From the NCBI RefSeq assembly GCF_003790525.1, contig NZ_CP033635.1: DNA of 64,000 nucleotides, one strand, 5' to 3'. Below are positions 30,051 to 31,813 of the stretch, piece by piece; position 1 is the stretch's first letter, and every line of letters begins with the position of its first letter. This DNA comes from Escherichia coli. Lineage in GTDB: Bacteria > Pseudomonadota > Gammaproteobacteria > Enterobacterales > Enterobacteriaceae. A program made the translations under genes and the position numbers. The notes under the pieces were generated by a model, which was not told the DNA's origin, made no database searches, and saw nothing but the letters and a program-made list of their open reading frames with translations.

Positions 30051-30652
30051 CGCAGGATTTAACCCAATTTCTCGCCAGCTTGCCGGAAGATGATCGCATC
30101 AAAGCGATTAATGAAATCCGCATGGCGATCCATCAGGTTAGCCCCTTTCGTGAAGAGCCAGTGGATTGCGTTCTGTGGGTTAAAAACAGCCAACTTATGC
30201 CTAATGATTACAACCCAAACAACGTGGCACCACCCGAAAAAAAACTGCTGAAAAAATCCATTGAAATAGATGGTTTTACCCAACCCATTGTGGTCACGCA
30301 TACGGATAAAAATGCCCTGGAAATCGTGGATGGTTTTCACCGCCATGAAATTGGTAAAGGCTCATCATCGTTAAAATTACGCTTAAAAGGTTATTTGCCG
30401 GTGACCTGTCTGGAAGGTACGCGTAATCAACGCATCGCCGCAACTATTCGTCATAATCGCGCTCGTGGACGTCACCAAATCACTGCCATGTCAGAAATCG
30501 TCCGAGAACTCAGCCAGTTGGGATGGGACGATAATAAAATTGGCAAAGAGCTGGGAATGGACAGCGACGAAGTGTTGCGCCTGAAGCAAATTAACGGCCT
30601 GCAAGAGTTGTTTGCCGACCGTCAATTTTCCCGCGCCTGGACGGTTAAATAA
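30023..30652 (+). CDS. ybdM: ParB/sulfiredoxin-fold protein YbdM (IbrB-like)
   Basis: 209 aa; DGFHR motif typical of the ParB N-terminal domain; overlaps the ybdN 3' end by 28 nt. Confidence 0.8.
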   Translation: MGDTMQQRLTQDLTQFLASLPEDDRIKAINEIRMAIHQVSPFREEPVDCVLWVKNSQLMPNDYNPNNVAPPEKKLLKKSIEIDGFTQPIVVTHTDKNALEIVDGFHRHEIGKGSSSLKLRLKGYLPVTCLEGTRNQRIAATIRHNRARGRHQITAMSEIVRELSQLGWDDNKIGKELGMDSDEVLRLKQINGLQELFADRQFSRAWTVK

Positions 30653-31813
30653 CTAAAGCTGGCGCAGGCGTTCTGCTGCTGCCAGCAACGTCGATTCCTT
30701 CTTGGCAAAACAGAGACGAATCAGTTTATGTGGGAAGGGATCGGCGCAAAACACCGACAGCGGAATCGCCGCTACGCCGTGCTCCCGCGTCAGCCACTGG
30801 CAAAACTCAACATCATCCAGCGTAGATACGGCGCTGTAATCCACCAGCAAAAAGTATGTACCTTCGCACGGTAAAATCTCCAGCCGACTTTCATTTAAGG
30901 CATTCACCAGAATATCGCGCTTCTGGCGATAAAAGTCCGGTAACGCAAGATAATGCTCAGGTTCTGCACGTAGCATATCGGCAAGCGCCAACTGTGCCGG
31001 GGTATTCACCGAAAAGGTCAGATACTGATGCACTTTGCGGATCTCGGCGCTGATGGGCGCAGGTGCAACGCAATACCCCACTTTCCAGCCGGTCATATGA
31101 TAGGTCTTGCCAAACGATGACACCGCCACCGCTCGCTCACACAATTGCGGATGCGCCAGCACGCTGGCATGGCCCTGTTGTGAAAAATTGATGTGCTCGT
31201 AGACTTCATCGCTAATGACAAAAATCTCGTGCCCGGCAATCGCCTGCCACAGAGCGGAGAAATCAGCCTACTGCCAGACAGTTGCACTGGGGTTATGCGG
31301 GGTGTTGAGGATCACCAGTCGGGTGCGCTCGCTTAACAATGCGGCAAATTCCTGCCAGTCCACGCGAAAATGCGGTGGTTGCAGTGCAATACGTTTCACT
31401 ATTCCCCCCGAAAGCGCGATGGCGGGCGCGTAACTGTCATAGCTGGGATCAAAGCAAATCACTTCATCGCCATTGCGAACCAATGCAGTAATCGCTGCGT
31501 ATAGCGCTTCCGTCGCCCCTGCTGTTACGGTGATATCGCTGTCGGCATCTGGTTGATAGCCATACAGCCGTTCCGTTTTCTGAGCAATCGCCTCGCGTAA
31601 TGCCTGCACGCCGGTCATGGGTGCGTATTGGTTTGCCCCCTGGGCAACGTGGTACGCCAGCCGTTCCTGCAAATAGCGCGGACCATCAAAATCAGGAAAG
31701 CCTTGCGACAGGTTAATCGCCTGGTGTTGCTGCGCCAGTGCACTCATCTGGGTGAAAATAGTGGTGCCAAGTTGTGGAAGTTTGCTTTGTGGAATCAGAG
31801 GGTTATTTGTCAT
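30653..31813 (-). pseudogene. ybdL: Methionine aminotransferase YbdL (PLP-dependent), interrupted by an in-frame TAG
   Basis: 386-codon frame is continuous except for an amber codon at 31268-31270 (TVWQ-stop-ADFSALWQ); the aminotransferase sequence continues in frame downstream. Confidence 0.8.

What the first reader, a model, noticed from the sequence alone, without database searches (positions are those of the whole stretch)
31268..31270. In-frame amber codon interrupts the ybdL aminotransferase
The minus-strand ybdL frame is continuous for 386 codons except for a TAG at 31268-31270, and the recognisable aminotransferase sequence resumes in the same frame straight after it. That looks like a single CAG-to-TAG nonsense change rather than old decay. 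It could be a recent inactivating mutation, an allele tolerated in an amber-suppressor background, or a base-calling error.
Basis: seen in the sequence. Interest (0 to 1): 0.5.

Follow-up and report, generated by a model that had tools for sequence, protein, structure and literature searches.

The report
Recent nonsense mutation in ybdL
A single C-to-T change has put a premature stop codon in the middle of a dispensable E. coli aminotransferase gene (ybdL); this is an ordinary, recent gene-inactivating mutation (or possibly a consensus error), not a special coding mechanism.

Summary
On the minus strand, ybdL (30653..31813) is one 386-codon frame broken only by TAG at 31270..31268 (codon 182). 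The window belongs to the phylogroup-F clone of E. coli SMS-3-5. Clone-mates read CAG (Gln) there, as does the solved YbdL structure 1U08. No 28-mer spanning the T allele occurs in 5,426 complete E. coli genomes.

The 181-residue product lacks Asp202, Tyr205 and Lys236 (the expected PLP-binding lysine, in the SFGK motif), so it should be inactive. ybdL is dispensable, and its only downstream neighbour is the convergent ybdM, so little consequence is expected.

The same CAG-to-TAG change occurs on at least five other E. coli backgrounds in public assemblies. W180*, Q181* and a +1C frameshift occur within nine codons of it. ybdL is therefore inactivated repeatedly at many sites, and I see no convincing hotspot at codon 182.

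The TAG is one of five derived, private substitutions in 45.6 kb in which four clone-mates are identical to each other. The source genome is therefore either a long-branch (mutator or mutagenised) strain or carries substitution errors. Without reads I cannot separate these.

A suppressor background cannot be tested in the window, which has no tRNA genes. Clone-mate SMS-3-5 has wild-type glnX/glnV. Interest is low.

The parts
30653..31813 (-). ybdL (methionine-oxo-acid transaminase; fold-type I, PF00155). It is a pseudogene here: 386 codons plus the natural TAG stop, interrupted at codon 182.
   Evidence: Translation. 99.9% identical (1 mismatch) to the annotated ybdL of SMS-3-5 and 23 other complete genomes. 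Aligns over its full length with PDB 1U08.
31268..31270 (-). Premature amber codon TAG at codon 182. It is derived from CAG (Gln) by a C-to-T transition at window 31270 (G to A on the + strand). The next base is G (UAG-G context).
   Evidence: 0 of 5,426 complete genomes have a 28-mer spanning the T. The control with C gives 3,470 genomes.
31271..31813 (-). N-terminal fragment, codons 1-181. This is the only part expected to be translated (about 20 kDa). It keeps Asn170/Asn174 and lacks Asp202, Tyr205 and Lys236.
   Evidence: PF00155 is recorded on identical 181-aa products.
30653..31267 (-). Untranslated C-terminal remnant: codons 183-386 plus the natural TAG stop at 30655..30653. It contains the SFGK motif (Lys236). 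In this haplotype the first in-frame start candidate is GTG at codon 218; codon 188 is CTG here, not TTG.
   Evidence: It is still identical to the clone's intact gene, so no secondary decay has occurred.

Best explanation
This is a young, strain-private loss-of-function allele of ybdL. One C-to-T transition changed Gln182 (CAG) to amber (TAG). Shown: the change is a single base, it is derived, and it is absent from all close relatives. Inferred: RF1 terminates translation at codon 182 and releases a 181-residue fragment. That fragment lacks the C-terminal half of the PLP-binding domain (Asp202, Tyr205, the expected Schiff-base Lys236) and the whole small domain, so no aminotransferase activity remains. 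Also inferred: the allele is tolerated because YbdL is redundant with other transaminases, and because ybdL has no gene downstream on its strand. It is therefore ordinary neutral (or nearly neutral) pseudogenisation caught very early. Any low-level near-cognate or supE-type readthrough would insert Gln and restore the exact wild-type protein, but nothing indicates that this is programmed.
For: 1. One base only. ybdL differs from 24 clone-mates by exactly one base, and SMS-3-5 reads CAG at codon 182. A 24-kb stretch around it matches 14 genomes with a bit score consistent with a single mismatch.

2. Derived. Near outgroups CE10 and LR-28 carry G on the + strand. PDB 1U08 has Q182. 3,470 complete genomes match the C-allele 41-mer and none matches the T-allele.

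3. No secondary decay. The remaining 385 codons are unchanged.

4. Lost residues. D202, Y205 and K236 (SFGK) all lie after the stop. Both halves are recorded as PF00155.

5. Dispensable gene. Deleting ybdL gave no growth defect even in a glutamate-auxotroph background using Met, His or Phe as amine donor (PMC9436414).

6. No polarity target. ybdM converges on ybdL tail to tail.

7. Viable and recurrent. The same allele is present in six other assemblies on backgrounds differing by 1.1-3.8% (L006, L032, L033, L042, L051, L063). Other knock-outs lie within nine codons: W180* TGA, Q181* TAG and a +1C frameshift. The YbdL fragment cluster has 813 members, including frameshift alleles found on many contigs.

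8. Error type. There are no indels in 62.7 kb aligned to SMS-3-5, which argues against long-read-type consensus errors.
Against: No reads are available, so a substitution error in the consensus cannot be excluded.

The TAG is one of five private derived substitutions in 45.6 kb in which four clone-mates are identical and a fifth has two. By my arithmetic, the Poisson probability of 5 or more at the clone-mates' mean of 0.4 is about 6e-5. That excess could reflect errors rather than biology.

The window's FepE L174Q protein and the predicted 169-aa downstream fragment are not on record in the large assembly collection. There is therefore no independent assembly of this genome to confirm the base.

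Loss of activity and lack of phenotype are inferred, not measured, for this strain.
Confidence: 0.68

Rival explanations
1. The T is not in the organism's DNA: it is a substitution error in the assembly consensus or a low-frequency variant called into it, and the real gene reads CAG and is intact.
For: The window carries five private, derived substitutions in 45.6 kb, while four clone-mates from different countries and hosts are identical to each other. The five show no sign of selection: 1 nonsense, 2 missense, 2 synonymous. Their spectrum is mixed: 2 G:C>A:T, 2 G:C>T:A, 1 A:T>T:A. No complete RefSeq genome and no other assembly of this clone carries the T.
Against: There are no indels in 62.7 kb, whereas error-prone long-read consensus usually shows indels first. 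Short-read consensus substitution errors are far rarer than 1 per 10 kb (general knowledge). The identical allele exists in several independent isolate-type assemblies and in a metagenome contig with about 70x coverage in its name (L006), so it is biologically viable. The window also differs structurally from clone-mates: it has an IS186-type insertion and no IS5 in pagP. It is therefore a genuinely distinct strain that may have a genuinely long branch.
Confidence: 0.24
2. The mutation is real but phenotypically masked: the strain carries an amber suppressor (for example a supE-type tRNA-Gln with a CUA anticodon). UAG182 is then read as Gln, giving full-length wild-type YbdL.
For: The lost codon was CAG, so a Gln-inserting suppressor would restore the exact wild-type sequence. 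From general knowledge, amber suppressors do occur in natural coliforms. A long private branch would also be compatible with a mutagenised laboratory derivative, and suppressors are common in such strains.
Against: The window has no tRNA gene, so there is no positive evidence at all. Clone-mate SMS-3-5 has wild-type CUG/CUG/UUG/UUG anticodons in its glnX-glnV-glnW-glnU cluster. No suppressor is needed to explain survival, because ybdL is dispensable. ybdL's natural stop is also TAG, so a suppressor would extend the protein as well.
Confidence: 0.04
3. Codon 182 is a mutational hotspot, or ybdL loss is positively selected, and this explains why the same nonsense allele recurs in unrelated E. 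coli.
For: CAG-to-TAG at codon 182 was found on at least six distinct backgrounds, with different polymorphisms 3 and 12 bp from the site. Q181* was found in two lineages and W180* in one, the latter clonally expanded to 15 contigs.
Against: I searched for Q182* more than for any other allele, so the comparison is biased. The less biased look-up through the 199-aa downstream product returned four different lesions within nine codons. The site is not a Dcm (CCWGG) site (sequence). My estimate is that with hundreds of thousands of sequenced E. coli, every neutral transition is expected to recur a few times. None of 5,426 complete genomes has the allele, so it never reaches appreciable frequency.
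Confidence: 0.04

Closest known systems
E. coli YbdL, methionine-oxo-acid (methionine/glutamine-type) aminotransferase; PDB 1U08, UniProt P77806
   Same: Same gene and same locus (hcxA-ybdL-ybdM-ybdN). With Gln restored, the 386 aa align end to end with 1U08 at E = 1e-260 with only five substitutions. It is identical to WP_000183920.1 of SMS-3-5 apart from codon 182.
   Different: The reading frame is cut at codon 182. The encoded product is a 181-aa fragment without the Lys236 region, so it is a pseudogene allele and not a functional member.
Strain-specific nonsense pseudogenes of dispensable genes in E. coli/Shigella (ordinary early-stage gene decay)
   Same: A single in-frame stop in an otherwise intact, conserved gene. 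The allele is private to one strain, the gene is dispensable, and many independent knock-out alleles of the same gene exist in the population.
   Different: Nothing substantive. The only peculiarity is that this exact allele recurs on several backgrounds.
Laboratory amber alleles suppressed by supE (glnV44)
   Same: A CAG-to-TAG change, which a Gln-inserting suppressor would revert phenotypically to the exact wild type.
   Different: No suppressor tRNA is visible. The clone background is wild type at glnX/glnV. The lineage is a wild phylogroup-F clone, not K-12.

Membership tests
YbdL / class I-II aminotransferase (PF00155) | Full-length colinear similarity to characterised YbdL | tested here: met
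   Residues 1-386 align to 1-386 of PDB 1U08, E = 9.6e-261. The locus is annotated ybdL in SMS-3-5.
YbdL / class I-II aminotransferase (PF00155) | An uninterrupted ORF that includes the PLP-binding lysine (SFGK, Lys236) and Asp202/Tyr205 | tested here: not met
   TAG at codon 182 precedes D202, Y205 and K236. The assignment of these residues as PLP ligands rests on general knowledge of fold-type I aminotransferases and was not tested here.
Nonsense pseudogene (recent) | Orthologues carry a sense codon at the position and continue to full length | tested here: met
   CAG in SMS-3-5, CE10 and LR-28. 3,470 genomes match the C-allele 41-mer and none matches the T-allele. References are 386 aa.
Nonsense pseudogene (recent) | No further disabling changes downstream of the stop, which marks it as recent | tested here: met
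   One difference in 1,161 bp against clone-mates.
Nonsense pseudogene (recent) | The base is truly present in the organism's DNA | not testable with these tools
   No reads are available. No second assembly of this genome was found.
Programmed stop-codon recoding or readthrough | The in-frame stop is conserved among orthologues | tested here: not met
   Absent from 5,426 complete genomes. It occurs only sporadically on unrelated backgrounds, alongside other knock-outs.
Amber allele in a suppressor (supE-type) background | A tRNA with a CUA anticodon in the same genome | not testable with these tools
   The window has 0 tRNA genes. Clone-mate SMS-3-5 has CUG, CUG, UUG, UUG Gln tRNAs, but that is not the source genome.

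The most novel reading that the evidence does not exclude
ybdL loss is not neutral. Under this reading, the region around codons 180-182 (and Q182 in particular) is hit repeatedly because inactivating this promiscuous Met/His/Phe/Gln transaminase is advantageous in some niches, or because the C at position 544 is unusually mutable. The window would then be one instance of a convergent adaptive knock-out.
Probability: 0.06. Interest if true: 0.3.

Novelty: already known. Interest (0 to 1): 0.08.

Why it matters
It matters little. For annotation, this ybdL copy should be flagged as a pseudogene (internal stop) rather than called as two ORFs. The strain is predicted to lack YbdL activity, with no expected phenotype.

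Two points may be of practical use. First, the source genome carries an unusual excess of private substitutions, which calls for a quality or mutator check. Second, ybdL is a frequently and independently inactivated gene in E. coli, so it could serve as a near-neutral marker of gene decay.

Tried and rejected
1. Contig ends. Many public contigs end exactly at codon 181, one base before the SNP; one of them (L004) is 100% identical to the window. I considered that this marked within-sample C/T heterogeneity, as a de Bruijn graph branch. Control look-ups at codons 178 and 180 returned similar numbers of contig-end hits: 10 and 4, against 13. I dropped it as background. A skew towards ends at exactly base 543 remains unexplained.

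2. Source genome. I tried to find it through its private proteins. FepE L174Q and the 169-aa downstream fragment are not on record. CitC T74 is on record, but only in unrelated lineages at 97-98% identity.

3. Ancestral alleles. I tested whether the window's 'private' SNPs might be ancestral, which would make the window a basal lineage. Outgroups show all five are derived.

4. Hotspot at codon 182. Matched controls found Q181* and W180* alleles and a frameshift nearby, so there is no convincing hotspot.

5. JGI metagenome scan. The T allele gave 0 hits, but the wild-type control gave only 6 contigs, so the null result is uninformative.

6. Recoded or amberless strain. Rejected: the lineage is a wild phylogroup-F clone, and ybdL's own natural stop is still TAG.

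Full report
**Observation**

Read on the minus strand, window 31813..30653 is a single frame of 386 sense codons plus a terminal stop. One internal stop, TAG, lies at 31270..31268, which is codon 182. The mechanical ORF list splits the gene into a 181-aa ORF (31268..31813) and an in-frame remnant whose first start candidate is GTG at codon 218. With Gln restored at 182, the protein aligns residue for residue with the solved E. coli YbdL structure 1U08 (386 aa, E = 1e-260), which has Q at 182.

**Provenance and the ancestral state**

The ybdL stretch matches 5,419 complete E. coli genomes. None is identical, and the 24 best differ by one base. A 24-kb stretch around the gene matches 14 of them with a bit score consistent with a single mismatch.

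A base-by-base comparison of the whole window with E. coli SMS-3-5 (NC_010498.1, phylogroup-F clone) gives 62.7 kb of alignment with no indels and five substitutions:
- 15217: citC A74T
- 31270: ybdL Q182*
- 46305: fepE I195I
- 46369: fepE L174Q
- 47920: entF R1022R

There are also two insertion-sequence differences, described below. At codon 182, SMS-3-5 reads CAG. On the coding strand the change is therefore a C-to-T transition.

A 41-mer centred on the T allele finds no 28-mer match in 5,426 complete genomes. The same 41-mer with C matches 3,470 genomes.

**How recent**

The other 385 codons of ybdL are unchanged relative to the clone, so there has been no secondary decay. Near outgroups (CE10, LR-28) carry the clone's allele at this site. 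At the four other variable sites they carry non-window bases, so all five changes are derived on the window's own terminal branch.

Over the 45.6 kb between the two IS polymorphisms, four clone-mates are identical to one another, and a fifth has two private SNPs. The four are SMS-3-5, 2D (human blood, China), KFu014 (river water, Japan) and M172-1 (pangolin, China). By my arithmetic, the Poisson probability of five or more private changes at the clone-mates' mean of 0.4 is about 6e-5.

The window's genome therefore sits on an unusually long branch. The five changes look unselected: one nonsense, two missense, two synonymous. Their spectrum is mixed: two G:C>A:T, two G:C>T:A, one A:T>T:A. In ybdL, 136 of 3,474 possible single-base changes (3.9%) create a stop. 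One nonsense among five random coding changes is therefore unremarkable, at roughly 18% by my arithmetic.

**Consequence (inferred)**

Termination at codon 182 leaves residues 1-181. Asp202 (SDEVY), Tyr205 and Lys236 (SFGK) all lie downstream. From general knowledge of fold-type I aminotransferases, these are the pyridine-N ligand, a PLP-stacking/phosphate residue and the Schiff-base lysine. The fragment should therefore be catalytically dead.

Re-initiation could begin no earlier than GTG218 in this haplotype, which still lacks Asp202 and Tyr205.

ybdL has no gene downstream on its strand. ybdM converges on it with no gap, so classical polarity is not an issue. ybdL-ybdM is listed as a convergent excludon in K-12 (PMC12288877). 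Reduced read-through transcription into ybdM/ybdN is a conceivable but purely speculative side effect.

YbdL is a promiscuous Met/His/Phe/Gln transaminase (bioRxiv 10.1101/2024.03.19.585368). Deleting it gave no growth defect even in a glutamate-auxotroph strain fed Met, His or Phe as amine donor (PMC9436414). A null allele should therefore be tolerated without any suppressor.

**Is the allele seen elsewhere?**

Exact look-ups of the 181-aa product and its haplotype variants found six other assemblies with a true stop at codon 182, all by the same C-to-T change:
- L006: ENA metagenome ERZ15609987, contig name cov ~70, reading CAG TAG ACT
- L032: SRR10067817
- L033: SRR30025690
- L042: SRR15540898
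- L051: SRR8586207
- L063: SRR13403406

These sit on backgrounds that differ by 1.1-3.8% over 4 kb, with different polymorphisms 3 and 12 bp from the site. A published primer shows the wild-type form of the ACT haplotype, CAGCAGACTG (PMC2947995). L032 and L063 differ by only 4 bases in 2.6 kb and may share one origin. That leaves at least six independent origins of the mutation, counting the window.

A less biased look-up used the 199-aa downstream product, which any stop in codons 168-187 would generate. It returned W180* (TGG>TGA, 15 contigs of one clone), Q181* (CAG>TAG), Q182* (three strains) and a +1C frameshift near base 521. Q181* was found again on another haplotype (L075 plus five similar contigs).

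The cluster of YbdL fragments has 813 members. It includes 133- and 137-aa frameshift alleles seen on 17 and 15 contigs.

ybdL is thus knocked out repeatedly and in many ways across E. coli. That fits near-neutral loss under very deep sampling. The data do not establish a hotspot at codon 182.

**Rivals**

A consensus error cannot be excluded without reads. The excess of private substitutions raises its probability. The absence of any indel in 62.7 kb and the demonstrated viability of the allele lower it.

A suppressor background cannot be tested. ARAGORN finds no tRNA in the window. The glnX/glnV cluster lies about 30 kb beyond its start, and in clone-mate SMS-3-5 it is wild type. ybdL's natural stop is itself TAG, so a suppressor would also extend the protein.

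Programmed recoding is rejected because the stop is not conserved.

**Verdict**

This is an ordinary, very recent, strain-private nonsense allele of a dispensable gene, at about 0.7 probability. The main alternative is a substitution error, at about 0.25. It is a known kind of feature, and the same allele already exists in public data. Interest is low.

Noticed in passing
window 55795-57130: A ~1.34-kb insertion between hokE and entD, flanked by a ~12-bp target duplication (GGGATTGCTCCC) and terminal inverted repeats (CATAAGCGCTAACTTAAGGGTTG). It encodes an IS4-family transposase (NF033592, 124.8 bits). By sequence, and from my memory of the InsL protein, it looks like IS186. It is absent from SMS-3-5 and from four other clone-mates. 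From memory, K-12 also has an IS186 copy next to hokE, so this may be a preferred target.
   Followed up: partly
window ~10221-10224 (pagP): SMS-3-5 carries an IS5-like (ISKpn26-family) element that splits pagP. The window and the other clone-mates lack it and have an intact pagP. The window is therefore not SMS-3-5 itself.
   Followed up: partly
window 15217, 46305, 46369, 47920 (with 31270): Four further private, derived substitutions: citC A74T, fepE I195I, fepE L174Q and entF R1022R. They lie in 45.6 kb in which four clone-mates are identical. This unusually long terminal branch suggests a mutator or mutagenised strain, or consensus errors. Three of the five lie within 1.6 kb (fepE/entF).
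   Followed up: partly
loci L004, L005, L008-L012, L034, L038-L041 (public contigs): Many Logan/ENA contigs end exactly at base 543 of ybdL, right after codon 181, rather than 1-2 bases later. Controls at other codons show no such skew in the exact end position. This may be an assembly-graph effect of the common G/A polymorphism at base 547 or of a variant about 30 bp upstream. I did not resolve it.
   Followed up: partly
loci L061, L068 (+13 similar), L062, L065, L066, L075; proteins P0010, P0011: Other ybdL knock-out alleles circulate in E. coli. W180* (TGG>TGA) occurs in a clonally expanded lineage (15 contigs). Q181* occurs in two lineages. A +1C frameshift sits in the C-run at about base 521. 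Frameshift products of 133 and 137 aa are seen on 17 and 15 contigs, one of them a 5.16-Mb replicon.
   Followed up: partly
window 30650-30655: ybdL (minus strand) and ybdM (plus strand) end back to back with no intergenic base. ybdL's natural stop codon is also TAG. The pair is listed as a convergent excludon in K-12 (PMC12288877).
   Followed up: no
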